From positions 1 to 42,113 of the forward strand of contig JWZX01002736.1 in assembly GCA_001275005.1 (NCBI GenBank): a stretch of DNA of 42,113 nt, given 5' to 3'. The position numbers were made by a program, and so were the translations under genes. Below the pieces are notes generated by a model. That model was given only the letters and a program-made list of their open reading frames with translations, was not told where the DNA came from and made no database searches. Below, piece by piece: positions 1,852-35,896 of the stretch. Within the stretch, counting starts at the first letter, position 1. Each line of letters begins with the position of its first letter. This DNA is from Chrysochromulina tobinii. Its lineage: Eukaryota.

Positions 1852-4800
1852 ATGGCGCGCAACCGGGTCAGCTTCCTGGGAGAAGGGGTGGCGGCCGAAG
1901 GTACCCTCGAAGCGGACGAGGAGATATTTCCGGATGCTGAAGTGCTGGTGGAGACGGAACCTGGCTTGTATCTCCGTGGTCTAGTCCTCGCCGTCGGCGA
2001 TGCAGATATCGAGGTCGCGTTTGGCGAGGACGAGCGAGAGCAATGTGCGCGCAGCCACGTGTGGCCGGCCAATGAGGCCGGGTTGTATGTGGAAGACACG
2101 TCGGCGCTCGTGCACCTGTCCGAGGCCACGATCGTCGAGAACATTCGCGCCGGCCTAGTCGAGCGTGAAAGCATCTACCAGTGGGTCGGCCCGACCCTGA
2201 TCGCCGTCAACCCCATGCGGACGCTTTCGGGCGGCGAGCGCTACGGGGCGGCGGCCATGGAACGGTGCCGCAACGGGGCGGCAGCGAATCCACCCGCGCA
2301 TCCCTTTTTCCTCGTCGAGCTCGCGCTCCGCGACCTCGTGCGCCAGGGCCGCTCGGCCGCCTTTGTCGTGAGTGGCGAGAGTGGCGCGGGCAAAACGGAG
2401 TGCAACAAGCACCTGCTGCAGTACTGTCTGTGGCGTGCGGGGCACGAGGGGGTGCTCGCGTCGCGGCTGCGTGCGGTCACGCCGCTCGTCGAGCTCTTCG
2501 GCAGCGGCGCCACACGCCACAATGCCAACTCGTCGCGGGTGGGCCGCTTCCTGCAGCTGCATCTGGGGGTTGGAGCTCGTCCCAGTGATCGTGGCGTCTG
2601 GCCGACGCCGGTGGTGCGTCATGCGCAGCTGCAGACGTTTCTGCTCGAGCGCTCGCGCGTCGTCTCGGTCAACGTCGGCGAGCGCGGCTTTCACAGCTTC
2701 TATGGGCTCCTTGGCACAGCGCCCCTTGCGGGCGCGATCGGGCTTCTCGCCTTTGGTCACGAGCCTTCCGAGTTTGGATACCTCCATCCGGGCGTCGCGG
2801 CGCTGCCGGGGCGCGATGACGCCGCCGAGTTCGCAAGCGGCTGGGGCGCCCTCGGCGCCCTCGGCGTGAGTGCCGCCGACGCCACCTCGGCCGCCCAGCT
2901 TTTGGCCGCCGTGCTGCTGCTGGGTAATGTGAGCTTCGAGCAGTGTGCTGAGGGCGCATCCCCGACCGAGGGGGCGCATGCGGCGCTGGCGCAGCTCGGC
3001 CGTTGGTTGGGCGCCGACTTGAGCGGCGCGCTGCTCCATCGCTCGATGCCAGGGGGCTTTGGGCGCGCGAACGTGCTCTTGCCGCGCGACGCGGCGGCCG
3101 CGGCACGCGCGCGAGACGCGGTGGCACGCGCCCTTTACGTGCGCCTGTTTGCGCATCTGGTGGAGCTTGTCAACGCCGCCCTCGCGTCACCCGACGCGCC
3201 GACGGAGGCGCCGACGGAGGCGGAGGCTGCGGCCGGCGGCGGCGGAGGAGGCGGCGGCGGTGGCGGCGGCGGGCGGCTCGGGCTGCTAGACATCTTTGGC
3301 TTTGAGCGCTTCGAGATCAACTCGTTCGAGCAGCTGCTCATCAACTACTCAAACGAGGCGCTGCACGCACACTTCCTGCGCTCCATCTTCGAGTCCGAGC
3401 TGCGTCTGTACAAGGCGGAGGGCGTGCCGTGGCCGGATGTGCCGGTCGGTGCCGAAGAGCTCGACCTCTCATTGCCAATGATGGCCTCTGATGCCCTCTG
3501 CTGACCTCTGATGATGTGCCGGTCGGTGCCGAAGAGCTCGACCTCTCATTGCCAATGCTCTGATGGCCTCTGATGGCCTCTGATGGCCTCTGATGGCCTC
3601 TGATGGCCTCTGATGGCCTCTGATGGCCTCTGATGGCCTCTGATGGCCTCTGATGGCCTCTGATGGCCTCCGATGGCCTCCGAGCGCCCCTGATGGCATT
3701 TGATGACCTCTGATGGCATGCTGAGTGCATCTCTGAGTGCATGCCGATTGCCTGCCTCATCAGGTGCCGGAGAATCACGAGCTCCTTACGCTGCTCGCCG
3801 CGCGTCCAACTGGGCTCCTCCCACTGCTCGATGAACAGTGCGCCCTCGCCGATCCGAAGGACGAGGCCTTCCTGGAACGGGCCATGCAGGCGCACGCCCG
3901 CTCGCGCGTCTTCTCGCGCCCGAAGCAGCGCCGAGGACGGCGGCGCGGCGGCGGCGCTGCCAATAGCGATGCGCCCAAGGCCGAGTTTGTGCTGCGCCAC
4001 TTCGCCGGACCCATCCGCTACTCCTCTTCGCACTTCGTCGAGAAGAATGTGGACAAGCTGCCAGTGGAGGCTTCCGACGCCCTCGCCACCTCCACCGACG
4101 CCCTCGTCCACGCCCTCTTTGGCGGCGCTGGTGGCGGCGCTGGCGGCGGCGGCCGGCGTGGCGCGGCCACCGTGTACGCGGCCTTCGAGGCCTCCCTTCG
4201 CGAGCTGCTCGACGCTCTCGCCGCCACGCGCTCCTACTTTGTACGCTGCGTGCGCCCGCGCGGCGGCGTACACGCGCAGGAGCCTACCGGTACGGCCAGT
4301 GAGGCCGTCGGCGACGGCGCCTATGGCGAGCGTGCCTATGGCGAGCAGTACGAAGCGGGCGCGGGTGGCGCAGCGCCGCGGGTCGAGTTCGACGGCCGTG
4401 TAGTGCTCGGCCAGCTGCGTGCGTCGGGCCTGCTCGAGGCGGTGCGGCTGATGAAGCTCGGGTTCCCCACTCGACTCGACTACGTCGAGGTGCATGCCAA
4501 GTACGCGAGCGGGCTGCCCGAGTGGGCGGCTCAGCTGCCCGCGCGCGAGCTCGTGCGGGCTCTCGCTCTCGCGAGCGGTGTGCCCGCAACGGACCTGCGC
4601 TTCGGTACCACCAAGCTCTTCTGCCGTGCTTCGAGGGGCAGCTTCCTTGGGCGCCTCATGGGCGGCGGCGGCGGTGCGGATGCGCTCGACACGGCGCTTG
4701 ATGCGTCCGCCTCGCTGCCCGAGGTTCGTGCCCTCCTCGAAGAATATGAGCGGCGGCGTGCGGCTTTGCCCATCCTCGAGAAGACGTTGCTTATGTGGGT

Positions 4801-6268
4801 GCACAAGCGTCGCTACCGTATGTTGCGCTCCGCCAAGCGCAACGCCATCGAGCGCGCGCGAGAGCGCATCCGGAGCGCGGGTCAGAAGATTGCCAGGGTC
4901 ATGCTGCCCTTCCTGGGCGCGCGCCGGCAGCACGGGCACGAGCGCTGCCGGCAGCTCGAGCAGCAGCGTCAGCGCGCCGTGCTCGAGCAGCTGGCCGCCG
5001 CCCGCATCCAGCGCGCCTTTGCCGCACGGCGCGAGCGCGCTGGCGACGACGACGACGACGACGACGAGATAGTCTACCTGCCGCATCTCCCGCGCCTCAA
5101 GAGCCAACGCTTCTCAAGCTCTCGGGCCAGTAGCGCCGCCGACGCGCGCCTCACTCGCACGCCTCTCTCTCTCTTGCGCGCGGCGGCGCGAAGGGTGGTC
5201 ACGGGCGAGTTGGCTGCGATGGAAGCGTCCGCGTCGGCGGCGGCGGCGGCGGCGGCGTTGTCGGCCGAGGTGGTCGATGGGGTGTTTGAGGGTCGAGTGT
5301 TGCATGCGGGGCACCTGTGGCTTTCGGCTGAGGGGGGCGATGCGCCGAGCCGACCCCGCGCCGAGTGGTACTGCGTCCTTCTCTCCTCACGCCTCCTGCT
5401 CTGCCTCGAGCGCGCGCGGGCGGGCGACGGCGGCGCAGCCGCAACTGGAGCAGCAGCAGCAGCCGCAGGAAAGGTCCACCGCTCGCGGAGCATCGAAGGG
5501 GGGGAGAGGCCCTTCGCCATCGGCGCGAAAGTGCTGGTCAAACGGACCGACGGCAGCGAGTCGGCGGCCACTGTTGAGAAGTGTGAAATGGACATCGTAG
5601 GGCGCCCCCTCTACACTGTCAAGCTGGAGGTTGGGCACGTGAAGCGTGCCCTTGAGAGGGACGTGCGCGGCCGACCAGCCGGCGCAGCCCGAGGAGAGGG
5701 CAGCGCCGTCGTGAGCGAGAGCGCCAGCGGCGGCAGGGGCGGCAGCGGCGGCAGCTTCGGCAGCTTCGACGCTGCGAATGGCGAGGCGCGTCGTGTGATC
5801 CCCATTCGTCTCGAGAGCGGTGTCGCGGTGCGCGCGCTCGGTGGTCGAGGAGAGCGCCTCGCGATGGTGCGGCCGGCCAAGGCGCCCACCACGACGCTAG
5901 CCGCGGCCTTTGAGCTCACGTGCAACGGGCGGCGCTGGACCGCGGAGCCCGCACTGCTCGGCCACGACGACGCGCAGCACACGGTGTGCGCGCGCGCGGT
6001 GCAGGTGTGGGTGCGCCGGCTGTGCGCTGTGTTGATCTCCGAGGAGTCGCGTGGCTCGCGCGTGACGCTCGGCGGCGCGGGCTATCGGGCGACGCTGGGC
6101 TGGCGAGCCGCTGGTGGCCTCGACGACGACGACGACGACGACGACGAACGTGAGGAGCTGCCCGCACCGCCATGCTACCTCGCAGGCCAGTGGAAGGAGG
6201 GATGCTATTACGCCGGCGACGGGAGTGTCGCGTACTATGTGGGCACCTGCCCAGATGACCCGTATTAG
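1852..6268 (+). CDS. Unconventional myosin: motor, IQ-like neck and split PH-like tail; two exons, intron 3445-3763
   Basis: P-loop GESGAGKT, switch I NANSSRVG, switch II LLDIFGFE, NSFEQLLINYSNE, GLLPLLDEQC, HFAG and YFVRCVRP. Splicing 3444 to 3764 joins WPDVP|VPENHELL in frame. Alternative ATG at 1825. Confidence 0.92.
3558..3720 (+). repeat. Intronic 10-nt minisatellite (TGATGGCCTC)n in the myosin intron
   Basis: About ten perfect tandem copies that decay toward the CCTCATCAG acceptor. Confidence 0.95.
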
Positions 6269-6656
6269 GTATGTGGGCCGACCTGCCCAGATGACCCGTA
6301 TTAGTCGCTCCAAGACAGAAAGGGCGGGGTAAGAGTGCTCGTACATACAACAGTACTATAGCACTTAACGTGATGTGCGTTGTCGTGGGCGGGGGCACAA
6401 ACCGACGTTCCGACGAATTGTCGATGTAATCCCAGTCGGCAGCGGGAAGAGCAAGAGCGAAGAGGCTCCCGGGCACCAGAAATGCATGATCGGAGGAGCT
6501 CTTTGAGACGGAGGGTTGGTGAGCGCGGGAGAGGCCGCGACATGACTGATGGACTGTCACAGAGGCTGCTCATCGCCACGTCATGCCAACAGATCTCGTA
6601 ACTAAACGCATTCTAAGTTGGTTTCGGTCGAACCTCCCCATCGAGATTGCTTTGCC

Positions 6657-7385: not shown

Positions 7386-8092
7386 TCGGTCCGGCGTCTC
7401 ACAGATGATTCTCTGCACAATGACTGTTAGCACACAGTACGTCTTTTAGCACACAGCATTGTCATTTCTCTAAATCCTCGCGTCTTCGTCCTCGCACGGC
7501 GGGGCGGATGCCGGGCAATCGGATGCCGGATCCCGGATCGGTGCGGGTTCCAGATCCGGATCGTTCGACGACTAGCCGGGGGTCGCAGCGGGGTACTCGA
7601 GTTATCACGTCAGGATGTTCCTGTTACAACAGGAACGACTCGACAACGACAATCGAAATCCTGAGGATTAGGTTTAGGCCACACTACGCTAGTTCGGTCC
7701 ATGGTCCGGTCACGGCACCGACGAGAGCGCGCGCCGCACAGCACCACCACCAGCACCACGCAGCCAGCACGAGCACATGCGCGAGCAAGGCCGTCGCCAC
7801 CAGAATGCAGCAAGGCCGCCACCATCCACACCACATGACCACACGTCGCATGCGGTCACAAAGCACGGGTTTGTATCAATCCGTGTGCAAAACCCGGCCC
7901 AGGGAGCCGGCACAGTCTTGGACAACATGACACCCGCCCCCTGCGCGCGTGGCCTTCCCCATGTCTCCGTTCTCACTTTCTCCGGTCGGTCTACTTCCCC
8001 CTTTGTGCACTGTTCAACAGATAGTTCACGGGCAGGGCAGGACTTCGGGCCAGAGAGCGGTGGCGTGGGGCTGGATGCGCAGGCCAAGTTCG

Positions 8093-14219: not shown

Positions 14220-16328
14220 ATGTCGAAGCGGGCGCTTGCCCGAGGCCCCTCGGTAGAAGACGATGACTCCTCGGACGACGAGCCCGTGGCCAAGAAGAAG
14301 AAGCAGAACAAGCAGCTTGTCGCGCCACCTGAAAAGATAGGCTCCATGCGGCCCGCGGCGTGGACGCAGCAGAGACTCACGGCCACTCCCATCCGCAAGA
14401 ACGTGTGGGAGGGCGAGCTTCCTGAACCGGCCGTGGATGAGGAGGCCGTCGAGTTGCACCGTGAGCGGCTTGGGCTGCGCGTGCCTGCAGTTGGGCGTTT
14501 ACCGTGCAAATTCTGGTTGCAGGGCCGCTGTCACAGGGGCCAGGCGTGCTCATTTGCGCATGTGAGTGCGGGCGAGGCGGCGGCGAGTAACGCGGCAACG
14601 TGTCCACCGCCCATCGAGAGCCTCTCGGACCGCGGCCTGCCGCGCACTCTGGGGCGTTCGATGCTCCACCTCGGCTACCGCGAGCCGAGTCCGATCCAAG
14701 CGCAGGCGTGGCCGGCGGCTCTCAAGGGGCATGACCTACTGTGCCGCGCCCCAACCGGCAGCGGCAAGACGCTCGCGTACCTGCTGCCCGCGTGTGCGCA
14801 CGCGCTGGCAGCGGGCACGCCGCGGGGGGGCACGGGGCCGGCCGCCCTCGTGCTCGTGCCCACGCGCGAGCTGTGCATGCAAGTGCTCGGCTTATGTCGC
14901 AAGCTCCAACGGCCAAGCGGCGTCCGCGCCGAGGCGTTGTACGGAGGCGAGCCGCGCGAGGAGCAGGCCGAGGCGATGGAGGGCGCGTTCCACGTGCTGG
15001 TGGCCACAGCCGGCCGATGCACGGACATGCTGAGCAGCGGACACGTGTCGCTCGCCCGGGTGGGCTGCCTAGTCCTCGATGAGGCCGACCAACTGCTCAC
15101 GCTCGGCTTCTCTGTCCAGGTGAGCCAGGTGCTCAGCCAGATCCGACCGGACCGCCAGATGCTGCTCTTCTCGGCCACGCTCTCCGAGCGACTCGAGACC
15201 GTCGTGGGCAAATGGTTCACAAAGCCGCCGCTGCGCATCTATGCCGACGAGGCTGTGAATATGAATGTGAATGGCTCGACCGCCCCCACTGAGCCGGAGA
15301 GCCTGCTGCCCTCGGTGGCGGCCGACGAGGCGAGCGGCGAGGCGAGCGGCGAGGCAAGCGGCGAGGCGAGCGGCGGCGCGTCGCTGGACACCGAGGCCGC
15401 GGCGATGCTGAGCAATGTGCCTTCGAGCGTCGAACAGCGCTTCGTCTTATGCGGGCAGGTGTGAACATCACGCCAAGACGGATGGACTCCTGATTGCCTC
15501 TGATGACTGCTGAGTGTGTCCGAATGCCACGGATTGCAGGGCAGCCGCTCGAACGAGCTGTGTGGGTTACTCGCCGAGCTCGGCCATACCGTGAGCGCCG
15601 AGGGCTCGGGGTTCGAGGAGCTCGGTGCGGGCCCGTTTGCGAGCCAGCGAAGCGCCGTCATGGGCACCATCGATGGCGTCGGCCAACGCGGGGGGCTCAA
15701 GGGCCACCTCCTCAAGGGCCACTACACCTCCTCCGCCACGGCGGCCGCGGTGGGCGCCGCCCTGGGCGGTCCTCGGCGTAACGCGCCGCGCGTGATGGTC
15801 TTCGTCAATGAGATCGCGATGCTCCGGAAGCTTGCCATACGGCTTCGGAAGCGCGCTGTGAAGTGTGAAGTGCTCCACGGAGAGCTCTCTCAACGGGAGC
15901 GTGAGGAGGCACTCCAGCAGTTCAAGGCCGGTGCAAGGCCCGTGTTGCTCACGTCCGACCTTGCCGCGCGGGGTCTCGACATTGCACGCCTGCCGGCCAT
16001 TGTCAACTATGACGTGCCCCCCTCGACCGCCTCGTACTTGCATCGGGCAGGCCGCACTGGGCGCAAGGGCGCACCCGGGCTGGTAGTGACCTTCGTGCGG
16101 CGTGACGTGCCCAGCCGCCACTTTGCGACGCAATCGCGCGCCCTCTTCAAGCGGGCGGGCTTGCCAATCCCCGAGGCGCTCCGCTCGCTACTACGAAAGC
16201 CGGTCGATGCGGCGCAGCGCACCCCGCGAAAGCCGGTCGATGGCGATGCAGGGCTGGCGGGGGCGAGCCTACTCGACTTTGCCGCCATGGCCGCGGTACC
16301 ACGGGAGCCATGCGAGATCGGGGCGTAA
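14220..16328 (+). CDS. DEAD-box RNA helicase with N-terminal CCCH zinc finger; intron 15459-15539
   Basis: CKFWLQGRCHRGQACSFAH; Q motif PSPIQ, APTGSGKT, PTREL, DEAD, SAT, ARGLDI and HRAGRTGR. The phase-0 intron joins LCGQ|GSRS. Confidence 0.92.
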
Positions 16329-17547: not shown

Positions 17548-19206
17548 CTACTGCCCCGGCACCTTGCGCTTCCCGCCACGGCCCTTGCCGCTCTTGCCGT
17601 CGACGTCCATCGCGTCGGCATCGGGACCAGTGGCCGGGCCTGCAGCGCCATCGCGGAGCCTGACTTCCGGCTCGGGCTGGGTGGGCAGGAAGAGGAGCTC
17701 CTCGTCGTCGTCGTCCGCGTCGGGCACATGGTTGAGCTCTGTCGGGTCGATCGTCACGATGTCGATCTTCTCATCCTCGTCGTCCTCCCGATGCTTCGTC
17801 TCCTCTTGCGCCACTATGTCGAACTCGTCCTCCCGCTCTGATGAGGGAAGCCATCAGAGGCCATCAGAGGCCATCGGAGGCCATCAGAGGCCATCGGAGG
17901 CCATCAGAGGCCATCGGAGGCCATCGGAGGCCATCGGAGGCCATCAGCGGCCCTCACCCGCGTATTCCTCGTTCTCCTCGAGCTCCTTAAAGTCGGGTGC
18001 GAAGGCGGACCAATTCTCCGAATAGCGCTTCGTCCAGATGTAGACTGCGCCCGAGCGCGCGCAGCACGCTAGGATCGGGCGCGTCGGATGGCTCGCAAAG
18101 TACAGAGCGCCGTCCTTCACCTTGTCACCCTGCCCGAGGATATTCACGAGGTGACCTTGCATGTCCCAGATGTAGACGAGATGGTCGGCCGCCACGTACG
18201 CCGTACCGATGATGTGTTCCGACTCGGAGGAGAAGGCTGCGTGTGACCACTGCACACGGTGGAGAAGGCCCTCCCCGTCAGTGGTGATCAGCGGCCATCA
18301 TTGTGCACTCAGGCGCACTCAGGTGCACTCAGATCAGGTGCACTCAGATCAGGTGCACCTAGGCGCACTTACCTGCACGCGGTTGACCACGTCCTGCAGC
18401 TCTCGCGGCGCCGCCTTCTCGCCGGCCAGCATGCGCTCGAGCGAGCACGCGCGGATGATGCGGTCGGACGAGTTCGCCACGAACGACTTGCCGTTGCGAG
18501 AGAGCACCAGGGACTTGATCGCGGCGCCTCCTGGCAGTTGTACCGACGCGACGACCTCCCGGGAGTCGACCCTGATCAAATGGACTGCGCCGCGCGAGGT
18601 GCCCACGAGCGCGTGTGAGCCCTCGCGGTCGAAGCACGCGGCGGCCACGGCGTCCCGCCGCGCCTTGGGCGCCTCCGCGCCTGCGGACGTCTCCCCGCTC
18701 GCTGCTGCAGCCTCTTGACCCGCTGGTGCCTCCGCCACGTCCGTCTGCGGCAGCAGCGCGACACGCTGCTCGGCCCCCGGCAGCAGCGATACCAGGAACG
18801 CCTGGCTTGCCGCGCCCGTGCCGACGCATGCGAGGCAGACCGCGCGCCGACGCGGGTGCAGTGCCGCCTGTAGCACCTCGCCGCCCATGTCGACCGTCTG
18901 AAGTGCGGTGCTGTTGAGCACGTCCCAGACGATCAGCTTGCCGTCGGCCGAGCCCGAGAGTAGCTTGCGGCTGCTGCGCGTCCAGTGCACGCCGGTGACC
19001 CGGCCCGCGTGCCCGAGCAGCGTGCGGGCGACGCCGTGCGTGTCAAAGTCCCACACGACCACCGTACCCTTGAGGCAGCCGCCGGCGAGCAGATTGCCGC
19101 GCCCGTTGAAGGTGCACACAACGACCTCGTCCGGCGACACCTGCAGCCGGTCCTCGATCATCTCGGGAAGCTCGAAGAGCTCCGAGTCCAACAGGGCGAG
19201 GTTCAT
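17548..19206 (-). CDS. RBBP5: RBBP5/Swd1, WD40 subunit of the COMPASS H3K4 methyltransferase complex; introns 18250-18372 and 17838-17957
   Basis: MNLALLD start, WD40 repeats, QDVVNRVQ|WSHAAFS, and the diagnostic hinge ENWSAFAPDFKELEENEEYA|EREDEFD. Both splices are in frame. Confidence 0.93.
17850..17947 (-). repeat. Intronic 10-nt minisatellite (C[T/C]GATGGCCT)n in RBBP5 intron 2
   Basis: Plus strand reads (GAGGCCATC[A/G])n; same unit as the myosin intron when read in the sense direction. Confidence 0.93.
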
Positions 19207-23678: not shown

Positions 23679-24129
23679 GGCTCCGCGGCGCGCACCGCGC
23701 TTCAAAGTCACTTCAAACTAATCTGAAACCGATGTAACATGTTTTGCATGTATTTTCCTCGTGCCTCCCCAAATATGTTCACACAACTCTGAATGTGCAC
23801 ACCATTCACGCCACTCCAGTCCCTCGATGCTTTCTCGACGCTCGCCCGGCAGCCATGCTGCCTGCGGTCTATTACATGTACGCAGTCGGCCCAACATGAT
23901 ACTCGTTTACAACATGGACCCAATCGAGTTACGTATACATTCTCGAAACGGAGGGTACAGAAGAAGGCACCAAATGCAAGACAACGCGTCTCGACGTTCG
24001 AACTGCTTTGACTTTGTTGCTGGCGGCTGCCCGGCCCAAAACGGCCTGCTCACGCGCCGCAAAACCTCTCAAAGCCCATCCACACCGCCGCCGACCTCCT
24101 TCTTGCCCAGTACTTGCCCAGCACCGCCG

Positions 24130-27100
24130 TCATGTTTGGGGCACCTTGGCCTTTGAGCCAGCCCCCTTGATGAAGGCTTGCCCATTCTTGACGGCATTGC
24201 CAGCCTGCTGCAGCGGCGTGGGCGGCGCTGATTGGCTCAGAATCTTCTTGAGCTCGGTAAAGTCAAGGCTGCCGCCGCCGTCCCTATCCCACTCACTAAA
24301 GAGGGTGTCAATTTCGGCGCTCGGCACTTCAAGACCGAGAGCGCCCATTGCCTCGTGGAATTCCGCACGACTCACCTGCCAAATATAGGAACACATTGCC
24401 AAATAAGGGCTGTGCTCATAGGCAATCAGTGGTAAATCAGTGGAGCTCGTCGCGGCTGCACCTGGCCATCCCCGTCCGTGTCCCAATCACATTCACATTC
24501 ACATTCACATTCACATTCACATGCACCTGGCCATCCCCGTCCGTGTCCCAATCACGGAACAAATCGAGCACCTTGCCCGCGTTCTTGCGCAGCGCGGTCG
24601 CGAGCTGCACCGAGACGGGTGGGGCGAAAGGACCTTCCTCGAAATCGAAGCCCCCGGGCAGCGACCGCGAGCCCCTGCCGCGTTCCTTGGGTGGGCGCGC
24701 GTGGCGTGGGGATTTGTCTTTCTGCGCCGCCTTGAGCTCTTCCTTGAGCTCTTCCTTGAGCGCCTTGATCGTCGCCACGTGCGCTGCCTCCGCCTTCTCA
24801 GCACATGCGGCGTTCCACTGTGCCTTCGCGAGCACCGCAGCAAGCTCCTTCTCGGCCGCCAGGCGCCCCTTCTCCTCGGCAGTTGCCTTGGCCTCTGCGC
24901 CCTGCCGCCCCTCCTTCTCAGCGGCGAGCCGTGAACTCGTCGCACTCAACTCCTTGCGGATCCGATTCGATTCGCTCTCTAGGCCACGCTGCGCGGCCTC
25001 GGCCTCCTCCCTCATCTTCTCGAGCGTCGCCTGCGCCTCCCGCTGCTTGGCCGCGGCGGCCAGCTTGAGCGCCTGCAGCTCCACCTTAGCCGCCTTGAGC
25101 TCGGCCGCGTGTTTCGTCAACTCCCTCTCGAGCCTCTCCTTTTGAAGCCGCTCGGCGTGGAGCGCGTCCGCCCCGAGCCTCTCGGACTGCCCCTCGAGCT
25201 TGCGCCGCTGCTCGGCAAGGAGGCGCTCCAAGAGCTTTTGGCTCTCGACACGCCTCCTCTCCGCATCTGCCTCCGACTCGACGCGAAGGCGCTCCGCCTC
25301 CACCGCCGCCGCCGCGGCCTCGGCATGCTTGGCCTTCTCGGCCTCATAGGCGCGCCTGAGAGGACGCTCCTCGAGGGTGGACACGTATGAGGGCCAGAGG
25401 CCAATCAGAGGCCAATCAGTGGCCAATCAGTGATCAATCAGTGGCCAATCAGTGGCCAATCAGTGGCCAATCAGAGGCCAATCAGTGGCCAATCAGTGAT
25501 CAATCAGTGGCCAATCAGTGGCCAATCAGTGGTCAATCAATCAGTGGCCAATCAGTGGTCAATCAATCAGTGGCCAATCAGTGATCAATCAGTGGCCAAT
25601 CAGTGATCAATCAGTGATCAATCAGTGGCAATCAGTGGCAATCAGAGGCTATCACCTGAGCTCCTCGAGGGTCGACTTGACATTCGCGCCGTCGCCCATC
25701 GCGCCGCCCAGCTCGGCGAGCTTGTCGCGCAGCGCCCGGATCTCGTCCTCGTGCGCGAGATTGACGAGGCCCGCCTGATGAGCCTCGTGCCGAGCTCGCC
25801 GGAGCTGCGCCTCAAGAGATGCACCCTCGCGCTCCAGCCTCGCGAGCTCAGCAAGGCGCTTCGCCTCGAGCATGCTGCTCGACCAAAAAGACCAGGCACT
25901 TGCCTTTTCGGGCGAGCGGAGCTTGTTTCCCACCGCTCGCAGATGAGCGAGCGCGTAGCTGCGAGCCACCCAGAGGTCGACCCACGCTGACCAGCCGTCG
26001 GCGAGCGCCGCGTTAAGCAGCTTGCGCACGGACTGACGACGAAGCAGCACAGCTCGATGCGGCGCTCCATCAGAGGCCATCAGAAATCATCAGGCGGGGG
26101 GGTATCAATCGTCCTCAATCTTCATCACTCGTCCTCAGCCTGCAGCACGCACGCACGCACGCACGCATGCACGCACGCACGCACGCACGCACCCTTTGGC
26201 GGATGCGCTCGATACGCTCTTCCTTTTGCTGCTCCGTCTGCATGGCCTTCACCTGCTCCGCTGAGCCGGTGAGCACCGTCAGCTGGCGCTCGAGATGCTT
26301 CTTGTGCTCGAGCCGGAGCTCGGCGATCTCGCGCTCGTGATCGAGCTTGAGCTTCTCTATCTCCACCTGATGAGGGAAGCCATCCGGGGAGATAGGGGAG
26401 ATCCATGAGTGGTATGCTCGTCGTTCAGCAGTTGGACCCCTCATGGAATATTCCTCTTCAGCAGTCCGACCTCCGTGGGATCTGTCGTCATCGGTGGCGC
26501 AATCAGAGTCGTCATCAGTGGCAATCAGTGGTCCTCGCCTTGAGAGCCGATTGGCCCGACGCGAGCGCGTCTTCCCGCCTCTTGAGCGCCTTGAGCTCCA
26601 TCCGAGCTCGGCTCTCAATCACATCCGCACTCCAGAACGAGAACATGCCCGCTACCTCAGGCGCCTTGAGACGATTGCCGCACTCACGCAGCCGCTCGTA
26701 CGCGAACGCGCGTGCCGACCAGAAGTCATGCCACGCGGACCATCCAGCGCTGAGGCCGCGGCTTAAGATGCGTCGGGCCACCTGCCAGCAGAGTCGACCA
26801 GCAGAGCAGCTCGATGCGCGCCCTCAGAACCAATCAGGGCCAATCCAAACGCAACAAGACGCACTCGAAGGTGCTCATCAAAGGCCATCAGCACGTCCCA
26901 CTCACCTGTCGGTGGAGCAGCTCGATCCTCGCCGCCCTCTCTTGCCCCGCCCGCATTGCCATCACCTCGTCCGCTGTGCCAGTCAGTTCGACCAGCTGTC
27001 GCTTCAGCGCCGTCTCCTTATCGAGCTCGGCCGCCTGCAGCCGCCGCTCGTACTCGGCGCACTTGCGCTGCATCTGCTCAGAGAGGGTGAGGGCCTTGCC

Positions 27101-30100
27101 TTCAAGCCCGAGGGATCTCCGTCGCTCCTCCCGTAGCCGCTGACGCTGCTGCAGCGCGGCTACGACCGCAAACCACACGTCGAAGGCGTCGCTGATGCCT
27201 GGTGAACGGAACGAGCGTGCTGCGAGCCGTAGCTTGCGCTTCGCGTCCGTGCGAGCCGCCCAAAGCTCGACCCACGCTGACCAGCCGTTGGCGAGCGCCG
27301 CGTTGAGCAGCCTGCGCACGGACTGCCGACGGAGCAGCTCGATCCGCTCTTCCTTCTCCGCGGCCGCGCGCATCGCAAGCACCTCCTCCGTCGAGCCTGT
27401 GAACTCCACAGCCTGTCGCTTGAGCGCCGCCTGCTTGTCTAGTTCGGCCTGCTTCAGCAGACGCTCGAGATGGTGCACCTGCAGTCCGAGTCAATCACGC
27501 GTCAAGAGTCGCAATCAAATTCGTCATGAGGCAATCAGTAGCAATCAAATTCGTCATGAGGCAATCAGTGGCAATCAAATTCGTCATCAGGGACCATCCG
27601 AGGCCATCAGTGGCAATCATCCGCGCCACCGAACCTGCTTCTGAAGCCGCTCGGATTTCGTCAGAGCATCCCCCTTGAGCCCCGACTCCTTCGCCATCTG
27701 AGCTCGCAAGGCCTTCTGCTCCCTGGTCGCGCGCGCCGTGGCGGCTCCCTCAGCCCAGAAGCTCCACGCGCTCGAGAGGGCGGACGCCTTGAGTTGCCGA
27801 GCAGTCTGCCTGAGCTGATGCATGGCATGCCGTCGCGCCTGGGCGCACTGCTGGATGGCGATGAAGCCTCGGGTGAGCCCCACGTTCATGAAGCGCCTGC
27901 CGCTCTGCCGGCGCATCAGCTCGATACGGCGCTCCCTCTCCATCTTCGCCTGCGGTCATCAGAGGTCATCAGAGGTCATCAGCGGTCTCGTCAGAAAGGA
28001 TCAGAGGCCATCAGAGGCCCTCAGAGGTGATCATCAGAGGTGATCATCAGAGGTATCATCAGCGCCCATAATCTCACCTGAGCCTCGAGCATGGCCTCCA
28101 TCTGCGATTGGCCGCCGTCCAGTACGAGCAGCTTCGCATGGAGGGCCATCCTCTCGGCCTCCGAGGCGGCGAGCCGCCTCTCGTAATCCGCCTTCATCCG
28201 ATCGAGTTGCGAGAGTAGGTCCATGCGAGCCTGGGCTGCTTGCACCTCGCGCTCGTGTGCTGCCTTCGCCTCGCGCGCCGCCTTGAGGTGAAGGACGTCT
28301 AGGCGCCAGAAGTCGAAGAATTGGGTCACCTCCGGTGCACGAAGCCGGTTGCCCGCACGCGCGCAGCTTCGCGAGCGCGGAGGACTTAGCACGCCATGTG
28401 TCCACCCAGACGGACCAGCCGCGCGTGATGCCTGCGTTCATCATGCGCCGCACCATCTGCGCGGGTGCAGGGGTAAGAGGCGCTCCATCAATGATAATCA
28501 GACGCACTCGTAGCCCATCAGACGCACTCAGAGCCTATCAGGCGCACCTGCTTGTGCATGAGCTCAATGCGCTCCCTTTTGGCCTTCGCCTCGGCCTCCT
28601 CCTTGGCCAGTGCCTCCATCGCAAGCCCGCCATCGAGCTGCGCACACTGCTGGGCGAGAGCCTTCCTCTCGTCGGTCACCACCGCGAGAGCACCGAGCGC
28701 CTTCGTGAGCGCCTCCTCGAGTCGCTGGATCTTTCGGCCCTCCTCGGTGAGTAGCTCGGCCTTCATCTGGGCCTCCGCGCGCAGATGTGCCGCGACCGTT
28801 GCATGCAACCGCTTGAGCCAGTGCGCGAATGCATGCTGGAGCTCGGGGGACTTGAGACGATTCGCCACCTCGCGTAGCCGTCCCATCGCGTACCTGATGA
28901 GGAGAGCACTCAGAGGCTCTCAGAGGCGTTCAGAGGCACTCACAGGCCTTCAGAGGAACTTGGTGGCACTCGGCGGCTCTGCACTCAGTGGCACTCAGTG
29001 GCCATCAGCTGCTCGATGGCGTACGTCTTAGCCACCCAAAACTCACACCATCCTGAGAAGGCACTCGACAGCCCCACATGCATCAGACGGCGTGCACTCT
29101 GCTTGTGCATGAGCTCGAGCCGCTCGAGCCGCTGCTTTTCAAACTCCGCCTGAGGCGCGGCCAAGACGGCAATATCAGCCATCGTCAGTGTGGCAAAACA
29201 GCGGCACTCGGAAATACTCAGAGGTGTTCAGAGGCACTCCGAGGCACTGGTACCTGCAGCGCCGCCTCGCGCCGCGCTGCATACTGGCACGTGCAGCCAG
29301 CCTGCCACTGATCAAACTTGGCGCGCTGCTGTTCAAGCAGCTTCTCGAGCAGCGTCTTGTGCGAGGCCACCTGCCAAACAAGGGGTGATCAGACGCCATC
29401 AGACGCCATCAGACGCCATCAGACGCCATCAGACGCCATCAGACGCACGTGGGCCGCAATCAGCTCCGTGTGAAAGGCTATCTGATTCTCCGCCTCCGCT
29501 TCCGCCTCGACGCAATCAGACGCAATACAGACGCAATCAGACGCAATACAGACGCAATCAGACGCAATCAGACGCAATCAGACGCAATCAGACGCAATCA
29601 GCGACCTGCTTCGCCGCCTCCGCCTCCGCCTCGAGGCGTCGCTCATCGGCGAGGGCGGCCTGCTCCAGACAGCGCTTGTTCTCGGCGATCAGCTGCTCTG
29701 GCGAGGTACTCTTGCCGAGGAGCGTCGCGTATTCGTGCTCCTTGGCCGTGAGCGTCGCGGTGAGCTCCCGCACGCGCTCGCTGAGGCCTTTGGTATCGTC
29801 CTCGTGCGCCACCTGCAGAAGCTCGAGCTTGTTCCGAAAGTATTTCTCCTGCCGCGCCTTATGCGTGTCGAGCTCGCTCAGCACGTGTGCCTGCTCTCGC
29901 AGCTGAGACTCGGCCTCGTCTAGGCTGCTGCTGAGCTCCTTCACTCGGTCGTGCAGCAGCTTACGCTCGTGCTCGGTCTGCGCCGCCTCCCTTTTCCAGT
30001 GCTCGAGCTGCGCCTGCACCGAGCGCTTCTCGAGCACCTTGTCGCCCATCAGCTTCTTGATCGCCTCGTTCTCGAGCACGCGCCTGCCACGTGCAAGCAA

Positions 30101-31511
30101 CACAAGGGGGACTTCCGTTCGTGAGAGGCTGCTGCAGCGGGGAGGACAGCGGGGAGCACAGCCCGAGATCTACCCGAGATCATGGCAGGCAGTAGCAGGC
30201 AGGTCGAGCCAAGAAGGTGGCGGCGGCGGCGGGCGGCGACGACAGCAGCGGCAGCGGCAAGCAGCGGCGAGCAGCGTCCAGGTGGCGCGGCGCGGCATGT
30301 GGCAAGTCCGGCCCCGGCGGTCTTGATCCAATCGCAAGCCTTTAGGTGGCCAGGGCCGGCGCCTCTCTCTTGCACGTCATGGGACGGAGTCTCAGGCATG
30401 GGATGCGGGCTGAGTCGTCCGGGGGTTGACGTTGTGCGACAGTTGGCCTATCGGTTGGCCGAGCAGACCCTAGAAATATGGCAATCGTAGAAGGCAATCA
30501 AGGGTCATCACAGAAATGTCTTCAGGGGCCATCAGGGGTCATCGGGGGCGTCACGCACAACCAGCCGTAGAAGGCTTCCGCCGTGCCCTTGCGTAGCCGG
30601 TTGGCACACTCGCGCAGCTTGCCGAGCGCATACGCACGCGCGTAGCAGTACTCGGCCCACGCGTTGAAGCCGAACATGATGCCCTGGTTCCGTATGCGCC
30701 TGCCGGCCTGACGATGCAGCAGGTCGACGCGCGCTTGACGCTCCTTTTCTCGTGCCTCGCGCTCCTTCTTGCTGAAGCGGGCGGAGGACTCCTCGAGCGA
30801 GCCGCTCAGGGCGCCCACCTGCGTCTTCATCACGCGAAGCTGCGAGAGAGTCGTCTCCTTCTCACGATCGCCGTCCGCGACACGTCGCTCGTACTGATCG
30901 GTGAGCTCGCGCAGCTTCGCCTGCCACTCGCGCTGCACCTGCTCGAGTTTCAGATCGAGCTCGTTAGGGGGAGTGCACTCGTTCGTCTCGCCCACGGCGC
31001 CCGAGCCGTCGAGATGCGGCATGGCCCCTGGGCGCACCACCCCGTATGCCGAGTCGATCTGCCGTTGGCGCACGGCCACGTCGATGGGCTTGCGACTCGT
31101 GTTCAGGTCGGTGACCTGCTGCTCAAGCTCCTTGATTCGCTTACGGAGCGTGATGACCTCGCGGCGCAGCTTGCGGTCTTCATCATATGGCGAGCCACTG
31201 GCGGCCGGCAGCGCCGGCAGATCGCCCGGCGTGAAGGGCCGGCTCACGCTCAGGTCTGTGTAAGGCGTGGAAGTGCGGGGGAGCATGAGCTGCACGTTGC
31301 CCTTCTGGCTGGGAGGATTGCGGTGCGGGACGTCCAGAGGCGCTACTGCGCGCGCCGCAGACGGCAGCTGAGTGCCGCCTCCGTCATGCATCTTCGTAGG
31401 GCTACCCCATGCACCGATCGGGCCGCCAAAGGGCACCACGGCCCGCGGCCGAGAAGGCTGCGGAGGGAGCTTCATGACACCGAGCTCTGCGGCGCTCAAT
31501 GAGGGATGCAT
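24130..31511 (-). CDS. Large coiled-coil protein with 7 paired Sfi1-like (centrin-binding) repeat modules and a C-terminal EF-hand pair; 13 exons; apparent +1 frameshift at about 28352
   Basis: Inferred introns: 30084-30561, 29371-29605, 29150-29253, 28894-29024, 28457-28547, 27950-28077, 27479-27634, 26782-26905, 26367-26538 (GC-AG), 26033-26192, 25356-25655, 24376-24526. Modules read RIELxxRQxxRRxxNxxxxxG[W/F]xxW...[A/F]FxxW. EF loops DTDGDGQ|VSRAE and DRDGGGSLDFTE. Confidence 0.8.
25395..25650 (-). repeat. Intronic 10-12-nt minisatellite, mainly (CTGATTGGCCA)n
   Basis: Plus strand is a tandem array of TGGCCAATCAG and TGATCAATCAG variants. Confidence 0.93.
29388..29601 (-). repeat. Two intronic 10-nt arrays, (CTGATGGCGT)n and (CTGATTGCGT)n, flanking a copy of the upstream exon end
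   Basis: Plus strand (AGACGCCATC)n at about 29388-29445 and (AGACGCAATC)n at about 29510-29601. Confidence 0.92.
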
Positions 31512-31881
31512 CGCGGCAAACGCTTAGGTGCTTCAGCCGCCAAGAGCGAGCAGCTCGCGCAGGAGGATTGCCTCCCAAGGCTGAAAGAATTGTGGTGGGT
31601 CACGAGCTCCAAAAGTGAAACGGTGGACTGCGGACTTCATCTGAACTCCTCGTTGCATGCGTTCCCGTTCACGTATAATTGCTATGTCGGCAAGACGCAC
31701 GACCACCGGTCACGTGGAGATTTCGTTGCATGCTGGTCCATTTCACACTGCAACTTCGCCGACCGGAGAGGAGGCGGGGAACTCCGCCGCCCAGTCTGCA
31801 TATCAACCGTGAAGGCTTCGCAGACCGTGCCAGGCGTAGAGGACCGTGCACATCTGTGGTGTGGTAGACTGGGTTGTTCAT

Positions 31882-32760: not shown

Positions 32761-32964
32761 GCTGTGCCCCACAGAGCCTAATGGTCCCTCATACCCTGTC
32801 TGGCAGTTGCGACGGGACGTCGATTTGCTAGAGGTTCTGCCAAAGATCCACGAAGAGACGTTGTTTCTGATTAGATAGAGGTAACGCGTTTGAGTTTCAA
32901 GGATGGAAGGACTGTGAGTTCACACTTAGGAAAAAAAGCGCCGTCGCGGCGCCGGGAATTTTGC

Positions 32965-35896
32965 ATGTCGGCTCTTATCAACGCGGCTTTCGCGCTCGTG
33001 ACGGTCCTCTTGATCATGCTCGCCTTTCACCGGCCGGTCATGGAACGGCGCACTGTGGTGGTGGGCGACTGGGCGCAGTGCGTCAAGGCCGACGGCGGGC
33101 GTGGTCTTTGCATGACTGACGATGTCAACACCCGCACCTCGATCGCCAATGTCGTGGACAGCATGCAGCTCGACCTCAACGCTGCCGAAGCGGCGCTCCG
33201 CGATGCGAACAGAGCTCTCACCGGTGGTAGTGCTGTGGCAGCGCCGACACCAAGCAGTACCAGCTTTTCCGTCGCCGCTGCGGTCGCGCCGACGCCAAGC
33301 AGCGTCGGCCCTTTGGCCACGGCCGCCAGCAAGCAGTGCCATCCCGAGTGCACACGGCGCGGCACGTGCAACCTCGAGCTGGGTCGCTGTGACTGCCCGC
33401 CCTTTTATACGGGCGCCGACTGCTCGGAGCCGCTCTTTCCCGCGTGCGTCAAGCAGTGGGGCCTCGCGATGCCTGTCGCGTCCTGCGGCATCCACACGCA
33501 GCCCGCCTTCCCAAGCAGCTGCGAGTGCGTGTGGGAGTGCCACGAGCTCGGCCTGGACGCGCGCCAGGAGTGCCTGGTGGAGCCCAAGCCGGGCCAGACG
33601 ATGGCCCAGGCGGCCGCCGACGTCAAGAACCGCATGGGCTGGATGCCCGTCGTAGCGAACGAGACGTGGCTCCAGCGCACACGGGCGGATGCCGACGCGA
33701 GTGCCTCCGATGACCGGTGCTCGGGGCACGGCATCCTTTCTGTGCAGCTGCCGTACGAGTTCTACCCGAAGGAGGCGGATTGTCAGCCGGGCGGGCGTCA
33801 ATACAATCTCGAGGAATGCCTCAACCAACGCGTACCCAAGTGCCGCTGCTTCCCCGGTTGGTCGGGGGCCAAGTGTGACCTCCGGATGGACGAGCATACT
33901 CATTTGCACAAGTGCCTCAACGACTGCTCTGGACAGGGCACGTGCGTCTCCAACTTTTGCAAGTGCAAGCCGGGCATCTACGGAGCCGACTGCTCGCTCG
34001 GGGGCGCTACGCCTCTCCGGCCGACAGCGCCGTCCACAGGCCTTCGGCCACGGGTCTACGTGTACGACGTGCCGCCACGCTTCACTAGCTGGATGGGCAC
34101 CTTCCGCCGGGGCGACTGGACGCGTGACCATTGGTATGGCGTCGATGTGATGCTGCACCAGCAGCTGCTGCGCTCGCCGTACCGCACACTCGACCCCGAG
34201 CAGGCCGACTTCTTCTTCATACCTCTCCATCTCTCCCTCGGCTTCTACTCTCACCGGTACGACGCCAGGCGCTGCTTGCGTCGCTGCTTGCGTCGCTGCT
34301 TGCGTCGCTGCTTGCGTCGCTGCTTGCGTCGCGACTCTCACCGGTGTGACGCCAGGCGCTGCTTGCGTCGCTGATGGGCGAACCGCCTTCGTCCTTGGGC
34401 AGGTACTACTTCAAGCACTTCACGCTGCCCGCGGCCAAGCCACTTCGCGACGTGCTGCAGTACGTACGGCAGACGTGGCCCAAGTATTGGGCACGCCGTG
34501 GCGGGCGCGACCACCTGATCGTGATGACGCAGGACCAGGGCAATCGGTTCGTGCGCGAGTCGGTGCGTGAGTCGACGCCCCTTATCATGATACACCACTG
34601 GGGCGCCCCCGCCTCGGTCAAGGTCGACGGACAGGGGCAAGGGGATCACAAGGTGGGATTCGACATCACGGTGCCCCCCTTCCATGGCGAACAGGCGCGT
34701 CTCAATCGCTGGATGCTGCACGGTGACTTCGCCAAGGTCGCTCCCCTCGATGCGGCCGCGCTGCGCCTCGTTCCAGCGGAGGATTCCTTCAAGCACGACC
34801 TCTTCTTCTCCGGCAAGATGAACCTGAATTGGGGCCGTCATTGCTCTCTCGGCGTCCGTCAAGGCGTATACCGCGCTCACCGGCGCCACCCGCGCTTCAA
34901 AATCCTCACCTTCGACAACGGCGTGCAGGAGAAGCTCCCCTTCCCTACGCACGTGGATAACTACGCATCGGCTAAGTTCTGCCTCGCGCCCGCAGGCTAC
35001 GGCTTCTCCTCTCGCCAGTACGCTGTGATGGCCGCTCATGGCCGCTCATGGCCGCTGATTGATCCTGATGCCCACTTCATGCGTACGAGTGCGTCTCCTT
35101 GCGTGTGGCGGCCTCTGATGGGGGCCCTCCCTAATTTGGCATCTGATTGGGCACGATGGCAGGTACGAGCGCATGCTGGTGATGATTGCGGTGGATTGCG
35201 TCTGATGGAACCTCCCTAATTTGGCAGGTACGAGTGCGTGCTCGTGGGCTGCGTACCCGTAGTCATCCAGGACGACGTCGAGATGGCCTTCGAGGAGGTG
35301 CTGCCCTGGCACCGCTTCTCCATCCGGCTCAACTTTTCGGACATCCCGATCCTTCCGCAGGTGAGTACCACTGATTGCGACTGATTGGGACAGATAGGAA
35401 CGTCTTCTGAGCCTCTCGCCTCGTCCCGATCCTTCCACAGCTGCTGGCACGCGTACCTGCGGCACACGTCGCGCGCCTACGCCGCGGCCTCGGCTGCGTC
35501 TGGCCTCGGATGCTCTGGCTAGCTCCGGGCCTTTACCCGCATGCGACCGACTCCGACCCAACGCTCGTCGCTGCGCGCCCGCACGATGCCTTCGAGACGA
35601 CCATGCGGACGCTGCGCCGCCGGCTGAAGCTGGGCGACTCGGCGGCGTCAGAGGCCGAGCCGTGGCGTGCTGCCGTTGAGAGCTGCCTCGTCGAGGACGG
35701 CGACGAGGCTGCATTTGACCTCGGCGCCTTGCGCCGACAGGTGCGCGCTGAGACGCTCACGCTGAGCCAGGACGCGAGCGACATGGAGTCCATCCTCCGC
35801 GAGTGGGAGCTGGGACGTGACGACAAGACGTTTGCGATGAAGACGCGCTTCTTCCCGTCTGGCGTGAAGATTCCTGGCGTGAAGTGGACGGATTGA
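32965..35896 (+). CDS. Exostosin-family (GT47) glycosyltransferase with N-terminal TM anchor and EGF-like repeats; introns 34257-34402, 35018-35227, 35361-35440
   Basis: TM helix, EGF repeats (CNLELGRCDCPPFYTGADC, CLNDCSGQGTC), RVYVYD, RTLDPEQADFFFIP, GGRDH, FCLAPAGYGFSSRQ|YECVLVGCVPVVIQD. All three splices are in frame. Confidence 0.9.
34270..34331 (+). repeat. Intronic 12-nt repeat (CGCTGCTTGCGT)x5
   Basis: Direct reading within exostosin intron 1. Confidence 0.9.

What the first reader, a model, noticed from the sequence alone, without database searches (positions are those of the whole stretch)
3436..35440. Introns that carry copies of their own splice junctions: candidate active intron-birth or remodelling system
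Seen in sequence: 11 of the 20 introns placed by frame joining contain a recognisable copy of the adjacent exon end or exon start. They are the myosin intron, RBBP5 intron 18250-18372, six introns of the 24-31 kb gene and all three exostosin introns. Copies are about 11-50 nt, unrelated to one another, and usually abut a minisatellite. Established: tandem duplication of exon sequence containing AG|GT is a long-proposed route to intron gain with few clear natural examples, and Introner elements typically show shared internal sequence and short TSDs instead. Inference: this lineage repeatedly duplicates junction sequence and fills the gap with satellite, creating or rewriting introns.
Basis: partly seen in the sequence, partly recalled or inferred. 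Interest (0 to 1): 0.88.

Follow-up and report, generated by a model that had tools for sequence, protein, structure and literature searches.

The report
Introns bearing scars of their birth
In a freshwater alga, about half of the introns in this region hold a short copy of the neighbouring exon end, and in several the copy forms the intron's splice site, which likely marks new introns made by duplicating the insertion point and filling the gap with a repeat that resembles a splicing signal.

Summary
I placed 19 introns, not 20. Ten carry a clear copy of their own junction and one more is marginal (0 of 200,000 permutations reach the score; the excess lies only in the last 40 exon bases). RNA contigs confirm 6 of the 15 introns laid. 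Other assemblies and a related strain carry the copies.

The copies are of two kinds. In five introns the exon-end copy is the intron's own 3' end, like a long target-site duplication. One of these keeps the ancestral codons, and one shows the permuted order of a tandem duplication across an intronless site. In five others the copy is internal and repeats an existing splice site (amphioxus 'mirage' type), so it postdates the intron.

RBBP5 and exostosin positions are mostly absent in relatives.

Best reading: gain by staggered-break insertion plus later local re-duplication, a long-repeat variant of known Daphnia and Introner footprints. Ongoing activity is not shown. The scan noted one similar intron elsewhere in this genome.

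The parts
3445..3763 (+). MYO1, myosin intron; internal perfect 45-nt copy (3513-3557) of exon end plus donor region (3436-3480), next to a 10-nt satellite; ends in the shared CCTCATCAG module
   Evidence: junction by frame only
15459..15539 (+). DEAD1, helicase intron; no long copy, only a 4-nt GCAG match at both ends
17838..17957 (-). RBBP5_2 intron; no copy; donor in register with the 10-nt satellite; 18-nt 3' end shared with CC9
   Evidence: position uninterrupted in L031, P0010, P0014
18250..18372 (-). RBBP5_1 intron; its last 20 nt are 9 nt of the downstream exon (18261-18269) followed directly by 11 nt of the upstream exon end (18250-18260), which supply the acceptor: permuted tandem-duplication signature
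   Evidence: absent in genomic L031, L032, L033/L034; present in the 96%-identical P0002
24376..24526 (-). CC12 intron; internal perfect 34-nt copy (24457-24490) of exon end plus donor, behind a 6-nt microsatellite
25356..25655 (-). CC11 intron; terminal copy of the exon end (25356-25382; 16 of 17, then a 6-nt insertion) supplies the acceptor; 11-nt satellite filler
26033..26192 (-). CC10 intron; 3' end (26033-26067) reads LLRRQ in frame, the family consensus, while the present exon end reads RIRQR
26367..26538 (-). CC9 intron; GC donor, shared 3' module, no copy
   Evidence: RNA joint of 172 nt
26782..26905 (-). CC8 intron; terminal copy of the exon end (26782-26822) with an internal 13-nt duplication; supplies the acceptor
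   Evidence: RNA joint of 124 nt
27479..27634 (-). CC7 intron; internal 30-nt triplication, no junction copy
27950..28077 (-). CC6 intron; satellite throughout, no junction copy
28457..28547 (-). CC5 intron; possible decayed exon-end copy at the 3' end (marginal)
28894..29024 (-). CC4 intron; start resembles the downstream exon start (marginal); shared 3' module
29150..29253 (-). CC3 intron; possible decayed exon-end copy at the 3' end (marginal)
29371..29605 (-). CC2 intron; internal exon-end copy (29482-29510; 26 of 29) between two satellite arrays; ends in the shared TTTGGCAG module
30084..30558 (-). CC1 intron, 475 nt; no convincing copy
   Evidence: RNA joint of 475 nt
34257..34402 (+). 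EXT1, exostosin intron; internal 40-nt copy (34334-34373) of exon end plus donor region, after a 12-nt array
   Evidence: RNA joint of 146 nt, outer donor used
35018..35227 (+). EXT2 intron; internal copies of the exon start (35083-35094) and of the acceptor junction (35126-35141, 35157-35181); run X15 has a further 9 nt of exon-start copy after 35150
   Evidence: RNA joint of 210 nt, outer acceptor used
35361..35440 (+). EXT3 intron; terminal 17-nt copy of the exon end (35424-35440; 16 of 17) supplies the acceptor; donor in register with the satellite
   Evidence: RNA joint of 80 nt in three runs

Best explanation
About half of these introns carry a copy of their own exon junction, and the copies likely come from two steps: new introns likely arise when a stretch of 10-nt CTGAT-type repeat is inserted at a staggered break that duplicates roughly 10-30 bases of exon, and short local duplications then likely recopy existing splice sites. 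Step 1 (inferred): the filler lies in the sense direction and offers branch-point-like words and often a donor that is a one-unit variant of the repeat. The duplicated exon end, which usually finishes in CAG, becomes the acceptor (RBBP5_1, EXT3, CC8, CC10, CC11; perhaps CC3, CC5). Where no exon copy ends the intron, a shared 3' module or the satellite itself provides the acceptor. The filler is probably copied from the genome's own intron pool. Step 2 (the copies are shown; the order is inferred from their content): duplications spanning a donor or acceptor leave a second, internal junction (MYO1, CC12, EXT1, EXT2, CC2) that is tolerated because the outer site is used, as RNA shows for EXT1 and EXT2.
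For: An alignment anchored at the 3' ends, last 3 nt excluded, exceeds permutations (13 of 200,000; 2 of 100,000 after dropping the five internal-copy introns). A tandem duplication across an existing donor would put the copy inside the intron, not in register at its far end. RBBP5_1 ends with downstream-exon sequence followed directly by upstream-exon end (score 8.5; 0.08% of 6,156 control pairs reach 8), so its template had the two exons joined. CC10's tail encodes LLRRQ, the consensus of 248 family motifs and close to the nearest homologue's MLRRQ, so it is former coding sequence. RBBP5 positions: of 19 proteins inspected (of 30 hits), 11 read through RBBP5_1, 2 stop there (the window's own and a 96% relative) and 6 stop earlier. 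Genomic loci L031, L032 and L033/L034 are uninterrupted there. Exostosin positions: among 21 near-length hits, 11 read through EXT1, 7 through EXT2 and 3 through EXT3. Five of these leave homology elsewhere, as at their own introns. Eleven full-length orthologues run through all three sites, several from clusters with 5-14 kb contigs. Satellite: CTGA[TGC] occurs 119 times sense vs 2 antisense in 3,306 intron bases, against 0.19 per 100 nt in exons; 19 of 19 introns have sense CTGAT and 1 of 19 antisense. In 5 of 19 introns the first 10 nt match a satellite unit of the same intron at 6-8 of 10 positions; in 4 of them the first CTGA falls at offset 10 and in RBBP5_1 at offset 20. Four introns share CCTCATCAG, two of them 18 nt, and three share TTTGGCAG. 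The donor-spanning internal copies in MYO1 and CC12 are perfect, whereas terminal copies carry substitutions or insertions, which fits a later origin. A haptophyte-like contig from another genome, L052, shows the same satellite, the same 3' module, and an intron start that reads like the expected next exon.
Against: No intronless allele of this species was seen, so birth is not dated and activity is not shown. The nearest intronless genomic relatives are distant (55-76% protein identity), leaving time for gain by another route and later rewriting. One relative, P0202 (60%), leaves homology at the EXT1 residue; this may be an intron at or one base from the same site, or an error. The 'longer' protein search can only return intronless or spliced forms, and I inferred genomic origin from contig length and read-through, not from DNA, for all proteins except those of L031-L034. 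CC5, CC8 and CC10 lie at the same position of an internal protein repeat, so they may descend from one older intron. Only 1 of 19 introns shows the permuted signature clearly. Short gapped duplications also occur in exons and intergenic DNA of this window, so local duplication is common here. The sample is 19 introns in 5 genes, and boundaries and copy classes were set by eye before testing. L052 ends before its true next exon, so it is only suggestive. CC10's acceptor and MYO1's donor lack RNA support.
Confidence: 0.5

Rival explanations
1. Remodelling only. The introns arose earlier by some other route. A donor-spanning duplication followed by deletion between the copy's AG|GT and the true acceptor, or repair templated on spliced cDNA, put an exon-end copy at the 3' end.
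For: Five internal junction copies prove that duplication acts on existing introns. The excess is all on the upstream-exon side, as expected if donor duplicates are better tolerated. Microhomology deletion between splice sites is a published proposal (PMC3020277, passages). A cDNA template would also give the joined-exon copy in RBBP5_1.
Against: It needs two precise events per intron, in 5 of 19 introns. Positions are mostly absent in relatives, so a gain is needed anyway. CC10's tail is older than the present exon end.
Confidence: 0.25
2. A dedicated mobile element (an Introner without terminal inverted repeats, possibly mobilised by a retrotransposon enzyme, which typically gives variable-length target duplications: own knowledge) makes the introns, and its body decays quickly into satellite.
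For: Shared 3' ends of up to 18 nt and one repeat family in strict orientation. Chrysochromulina Introners carry the donor and co-opt the acceptor from a duplication (bioRxiv 2022.06.06.494994, passages).
Against: The exact shared 3' ends among the 19 introns reach at most 18 nt and the interiors differ on reading; lengths run from 80 to 475 nt. The published duplication is a fixed 4 bp. A permuted exon copy (RBBP5_1) is not a transposition product. Shared 3' words may be selected splice signals.
Confidence: 0.15
3. Plain tandem duplication of exon sequence (Rogers model) creates a small intron from exon DNA alone, and the satellite grows inside it afterwards.
For: Permuted order in RBBP5_1. 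CC10 reads on through its donor as R-V-R, like the next exon's S-V-R. A fresh 36-nt GT...AG duplication lies after the myosin stop.
Against: In RBBP5_1, EXT3, CC10 and CC11 the next exon does not begin with GT, and the RBBP5_1, EXT3 and CC11 donors look satellite-derived. A 32-nt unit would shift the frame until spliced. Downstream-exon copies show no overall excess.
Confidence: 0.08
4. Assembly artefact or chance.
For: The window has at least one probable error, an extra base near 28352 that is absent in L026. No long reads were checked.
Against: Permutation tests; identical introns in two other assemblies; copies present in a diverged strain; copies differ from their source by substitutions; RNA joints match.
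Confidence: 0.02

Closest known systems
Daphnia pulex neointrons attributed to staggered double-strand-break repair (Li et al. 2014, PMC4202315; passages read)
   Same: A direct repeat of the adjacent exon's terminal bases at the opposite intron end; frequent internal repeats; occasional recruitment of exon bases into the intron with insert bases into the exon, as inferred for CC10.
   Different: Daphnia repeats are 4-12 bp (33 found; 90 neointrons studied) and the shared motifs are AT-rich. Here the copies are about 11-35 nt and the filler is one oriented 10-nt branch-point-like family. Daphnia gains are shown by population polymorphism; these are not.
Introners of Chrysochromulina sp. and of Symbiodinium/Polarella (bioRxiv 2022.06.06.494994 and 2020.10.14.339549; passages read)
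   Same: One splice site carried by the insert and the other co-opted from duplicated target sequence. The Chrysochromulina example carries the donor and co-opts the acceptor, without inverted repeats.
   Different: Published duplications are fixed per family at 3-8 nt and families share sequence to the intron edges. Here the lengths vary and only satellite and short 3' ends are shared. A later survey removed families whose similarity came from satellites (PMC12130899, passage), so introns like these could have been filtered out.
Amphioxus 'mirage' minisatellites (PMC3087553; abstract and section 16 read)
   Same: Duplicates spanning an exon-intron boundary at either end, normal splicing retained, length variation, proposed as a route to new introns.
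   Different: Mirages are head-to-tail arrays (3-6 units in BflGb6; units of 10-160 bp). Here there are 2-3 copies separated by an unrelated satellite, in a protist, alongside terminal copies that mirages do not explain.
Rogers tandem-duplication model, with ATP2A1, fission-yeast and potato RdRp cases (PMC3443670 and PMC4974935; passages read)
   Same: Intron sequence derived from duplicated local exon; RBBP5_1 has the predicted permuted order.
   Different: The model takes both GT and AG from the duplicated AGGT; here the donor mostly comes from filler.

Membership tests
Introner | Families of introns similar along their length with common boundaries | tested here: not met
   Among the 19 introns, exact shared 3' ends reach 8-18 nt and the interiors differ on reading. 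This is one window only; a genome-wide clustering could not be run.
Introner | One splice site co-opted from duplicated target sequence | tested here: met
   Acceptor lies in an exon-end copy in RBBP5_1, EXT3, CC8, CC10, CC11; RNA confirms EXT3 and CC8.
Introner | Short target-site duplication of fixed length per family | tested here: not met
   Terminal copies span about 11-35 nt; position -4 matches in 8 of 19 vs 7.3 expected.
Introner | Terminal inverted repeats (many, not all, families) | not tested
   No dedicated scan was run; none is evident on reading the ends.
Rogers tandem-duplication intron | Intron contains downstream-exon start followed by upstream-exon end | tested here: met
   Met in 1 of 19 (RBBP5_1); a weak internal case in EXT2.
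Rogers tandem-duplication intron | Both splice sites come from the duplicated AGGT | tested here: not met
   RBBP5_1's next exon begins TG, and its donor matches a satellite unit at 8 of 10.
Staggered-break neointron (Daphnia type) | Direct repeat of terminal exon bases at the opposite intron end | tested here: met
   13 of 200,000 permutations; longer than the published 4-12 bp.
Staggered-break neointron (Daphnia type) | Intron absent from outgroups | tested here: met
   Met for RBBP5_1, RBBP5_2, EXT2, EXT3. EXT1 is doubtful because of P0202; MYO1, DEAD1 and the CC introns were not resolved.
Staggered-break neointron (Daphnia type) | Presence/absence polymorphism within the species | tested here: inconclusive
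   One DNA-like run (X15) shows the covered introns present; its joint table was dominated by repeats and cut short.
Mirage repeats | Duplicate spans an exon-intron boundary | tested here: met
   MYO1, CC12, EXT1, EXT2; CC2 reaches the boundary with a decayed donor.
Mirage repeats | Head-to-tail minisatellite array of the boundary unit | tested here: not met
   Two or three copies separated by another satellite.
Mirage repeats | Normal splicing retained | tested here: met
   EXT1 and EXT2 are spliced at the outer sites in RNA contigs; MYO1, CC2 and CC12 are not shown.

The most novel reading that the evidence does not exclude
This haptophyte lineage builds introns de novo, genome-wide and still today, without a transposon. 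Repair at staggered breaks duplicates 10-30 bases of exon and pastes in an oriented 10-nt satellite that is a ready-made splicing cassette (donor, branch points, sometimes acceptor), leaving thousands of introns whose birth can be read and dated from their scars.
Probability: 0.3. Interest if true: 0.85.

Novelty: new variant of a known kind. Interest (0 to 1): 0.64.

Why it matters
The source of most newly gained introns is unknown because the traces are short or erased. Here roughly half the introns keep long, datable copies of their own junctions, and relatives with intronless sites exist. A whole-genome test could therefore separate break-repair gain, tandem duplication, Introner insertion and later rewriting in one organism. 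A satellite that doubles as a splicing cassette would also explain how random filler becomes spliceable at once.

Tried and rejected
Extra DNA for a genome-wide test: no whole genome is held, so that test could not be run. Satellite scans of viral contigs found 0 stretches, then 25 probable chance hits, then 0. The first prokaryote-genome scan found 0. The second found 19 loci; of the 9 I read, most were bacterial intergenic repeats, one (L052) was a usable haptophyte-like contig and one (L042) a truncated candidate. The rest of the contigs behind L026/L027 and the cluster members of the RBBP5 hits were not obtained, so whether P0003 and P0004 are genomic or spliced stays open.

The first read-laying (likeness 88) was swamped by repeat joints and showed no usable splice joints. 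Nine of 15 introns have no listed RNA joint; this is lack of cover or skipped repeats, not evidence against them. L026 first looked like a second strain (98.7%), but its differences all lie in the TPR-repeat gene.

Ideas rejected: inverted copies of exon flanks (upstream 5,761 and downstream 839 of 20,000, one of 12 tests). Also the idea that the CCTCATCAG module occurs only where the exon does not end in CAG, because L052 has both. No close orthologue of the 24-31 kb gene with known DNA was found, so its intron positions are untested.

Literature: ten searches found no paper describing long junction copies or an oriented CTGAT satellite in haptophyte introns. The library lacks most subscription papers. 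I recall that the Emiliania huxleyi genome paper reports 10-11 bp tandem repeats concentrated in introns; searches did not retrieve it. I opened no supplements; the Introner family tables of the Gozashti papers may include families from this lineage and could lower the novelty.

Full report
Setting. The window is eukaryotic, with G+C mostly 0.60-0.70. Named homologues of the exostosin are from Prymnesium and Isochrysis, and the named runs holding the DNA are freshwater, lake or mixed-culture. I infer a freshwater haptophyte, probably Chrysochromulina. No whole genome was available.

Introns. Frame joining gave 19 introns in five genes: a myosin, a DEAD-box helicase, RBBP5, a 1,717-residue repeat protein with C-terminal EF hands (here 'CC'), and an EGF/exostosin protein (Pfam). 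One extra base near 28352 breaks the CC frame and is absent in L026, so it is probably an assembly error. RNA contigs from three studies join across CC1, CC8, CC9, EXT1, EXT2 and EXT3 with exactly the predicted lengths; one PolyA contig joins all three exostosin introns (6 of 15 introns laid). Homologues fix the RBBP5 and exostosin joins and agree with the CC4, CC5, CC8, CC10 and CC12 joins. MYO1 rests on frame alone.

The observation. Introns resemble their own flanks far more than other introns' flanks (0 of 200,000 permutations). This holds within the repetitive CC gene (18 of 100,000) and outside it (146 of 100,000). The excess lies only in the last 40 bases of the upstream exon, in direct orientation. 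More distant windows, the downstream exon and inverted comparisons show none, apart from one weak value among 12 tests. Ten introns have clear copies; CC4, CC3 and CC5 are marginal. The copies are not an artefact of this assembly: L026 and L027 match in all 11 introns compared, and run X15, about 99% alike, carries those of RBBP5_1 and EXT1-3.

Two kinds of copy. Internal copies (MYO1 45 nt perfect, CC12 34 nt perfect, EXT1 40 nt, EXT2 several, CC2 26 of 29) mostly include intron sequence, so they arose after the intron. They resemble amphioxus mirages (PMC3087553, section 16). RNA shows the outer sites used in EXT1 and EXT2. Short gapped duplications also occur in exons and between genes, so no special machinery is needed for this kind. 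Run X15 has 9 more bases of exon-start copy in EXT2, so the copy number still varies.

Terminal copies (RBBP5_1, EXT3, CC8, CC10, CC11) end at the acceptor, in register with the exon end. An alignment anchored there, with the last three bases excluded, is significant (13 of 200,000; 2 of 100,000 without the five internal-copy introns; 4,740 of 100,000 in the 7 non-CC introns alone). A simple duplication across an existing donor would not put a copy there.

Two cases are telling. RBBP5_1 ends with 9 bases of the downstream exon followed directly by 11 bases of the upstream exon end. That is the junction a 32-base tandem duplication across the intronless site would leave (0.08% of 6,156 control pairs score as high, about 0.015 expected among 19). 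CC10's last five codons read LLRRQ, the consensus of 248 family motifs, while the present exon end reads RIRQR and the nearest homologue has MLRRQ. The intron tail is therefore old coding sequence, and the exon end was replaced by the same number of bases (inference).

The filler. The 'minisatellites' are mostly one family of 10-11 nt units built on CTGAT/CTGAG, strictly oriented with the gene: 119 sense vs 2 antisense in 3,306 intron bases, present in 19 of 19 introns, and clustered nowhere else in the window except one 3' UTR. CTGAY is the usual branch-point consensus (own knowledge). Five donors match a unit of their own satellite at 6-8 of 10 bases and sit in its 10-base register. Four unrelated introns end in CCTCATCAG, two sharing 18 bases, and three end in TTTGGCAG. 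The introns are therefore related to one another even though the copies are not. The orientation could reflect origin or selection for splicing; I cannot separate these. L052, a haptophyte-like contig in a bacterial bin, has the same satellite and 3' module, a start that reads like the expected next exon of its CofG-like gene, and two further copies of that sequence. The contig ends before the real exon.

Gain or old introns. RBBP5_1 is uninterrupted in genomic loci L031, L032 and L033/L034 (10 loci returned, of which two are this strain, three look like transcripts and one is a distant fragment). Of 19 proteins inspected among 30 hits, 11 read through the site, 2 stop there (self and a 96% relative) and 6 stop earlier at other positions. 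For exostosin, 11 full-length orthologues, including the sister sequence in a tree, run through all three sites, but that search can only return intronless or spliced forms. A near-length search without that bias gave 21 hits: 11 read through EXT1, 7 through EXT2 and 3 through EXT3. One 98% relative has EXT1, and one 60% relative (P0202) breaks off at the EXT1 residue, which counts against EXT1 being unique. Relatives have their own introns at many other positions, so turnover in haptophytes is high. Gain is favoured for RBBP5_1, RBBP5_2, EXT2 and EXT3, doubtful for EXT1, and untested for MYO1, DEAD1 and CC.

Mechanism. Shown: the copies, their anchoring, correct splicing of six introns, the oriented satellite, the shared 3' ends, and absence of four positions in relatives. 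Inferred: terminal copies are birth scars of insertion at a staggered break, the filler supplies donor and branch point, and internal copies are later. I put this at 0.5, remodelling of older introns at 0.25, a dedicated mobile element at 0.15, pure exon tandem duplication at 0.08 and artefact at 0.02.

Comparison. It works like Daphnia staggered-break neointrons (PMC4202315, passages) and like Introners that co-opt an acceptor from their target duplication, already reported in Chrysochromulina with 4 bp (bioRxiv 2022.06.06.494994, passages; 3-8 nt in dinoflagellates). It fails Introner membership on family-wide similarity and fixed duplication length within this window, and fails the strict Rogers model on the source of the donor (PMC3443670 and PMC4974935, passages). 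What I did not find in print, in ten searches of a partial library with no supplements read, is the combination of long variable copies, high prevalence and an oriented branch-point-like satellite. An unchecked note from this scan describes a 15-base repeat-flanked intron family elsewhere in the same genome; I did not test it and count it as a lead only. Other papers seen: PMC4580454, PMC12130899, PMC3020277 and bioRxiv 2021.10.25.465678 as passages; the rest as search listings only.

Verdict. A real, statistically strong feature and a new variant of known intron-gain footprints. 'Active' is unproven and the sample is one window. Interest 0.64.

Noticed in passing
window 6245-6304: A 24-nt duplication across the myosin stop codon leaves a 36-nt segment (6269-6304) that starts GT and ends AG, a possible newborn mini-intron in the 3' UTR. 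Not covered by the RNA laid.
   Followed up: no
window ~28352: One extra base shifts the frame of the 24-31 kb gene; absent in L026, so probably an assembly error.
   Followed up: yes
window 24129-31511 (-): The gene belongs to a large unnamed family (499 representatives at E<=0.001) of repeat proteins with an ERIELLRRQ motif, tryptophan pairs and C-terminal EF hands; the spacing recalls centrin-binding Sfi1 repeats (recalled, untested).
   Followed up: partly
window 26367-26538 (-): GC-AG intron; an RNA joint of the predicted 172 nt supports it.
   Followed up: yes
window 35164-35346: An RNA-run contig (X9) covers the end of EXT2 unspliced and begins just after the internal acceptor copy; it could be retention, DNA, or use of the copy. 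Weak hint only.
   Followed up: no
L037, L043, L045, L046, L049; genome G008: Bacterial bins (Verrucomicrobia, Acidobacteriota, Treponema) have intergenic 10-nt repeats nearly identical to the intron satellite; probably convergent.
   Followed up: no
L052 977-1440: Haptophyte-like contaminant contig in a Gemmatimonas bin: CofG-like gene interrupted by the same satellite and 3' module, with repeated copies of a likely exon start.
   Followed up: partly
P0072; P0201: P0072 (96% to the exon before CC8) leaves homology about 12 codons before the CC8 site. P0201 (98%) reads into EXT1 with a different 12-nt array unit, suggesting fast turnover of the filler.
   Followed up: no
window 8093-11878 (-): Gene with 126-nt tandem repeats whose order differs between the window and L026; may be collapsed or rearranged in one assembly.
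   Followed up: no
whole window: Introns are patchy: five genes hold all 19, while the other long ORFs show no satellite cluster.
   Followed up: partly
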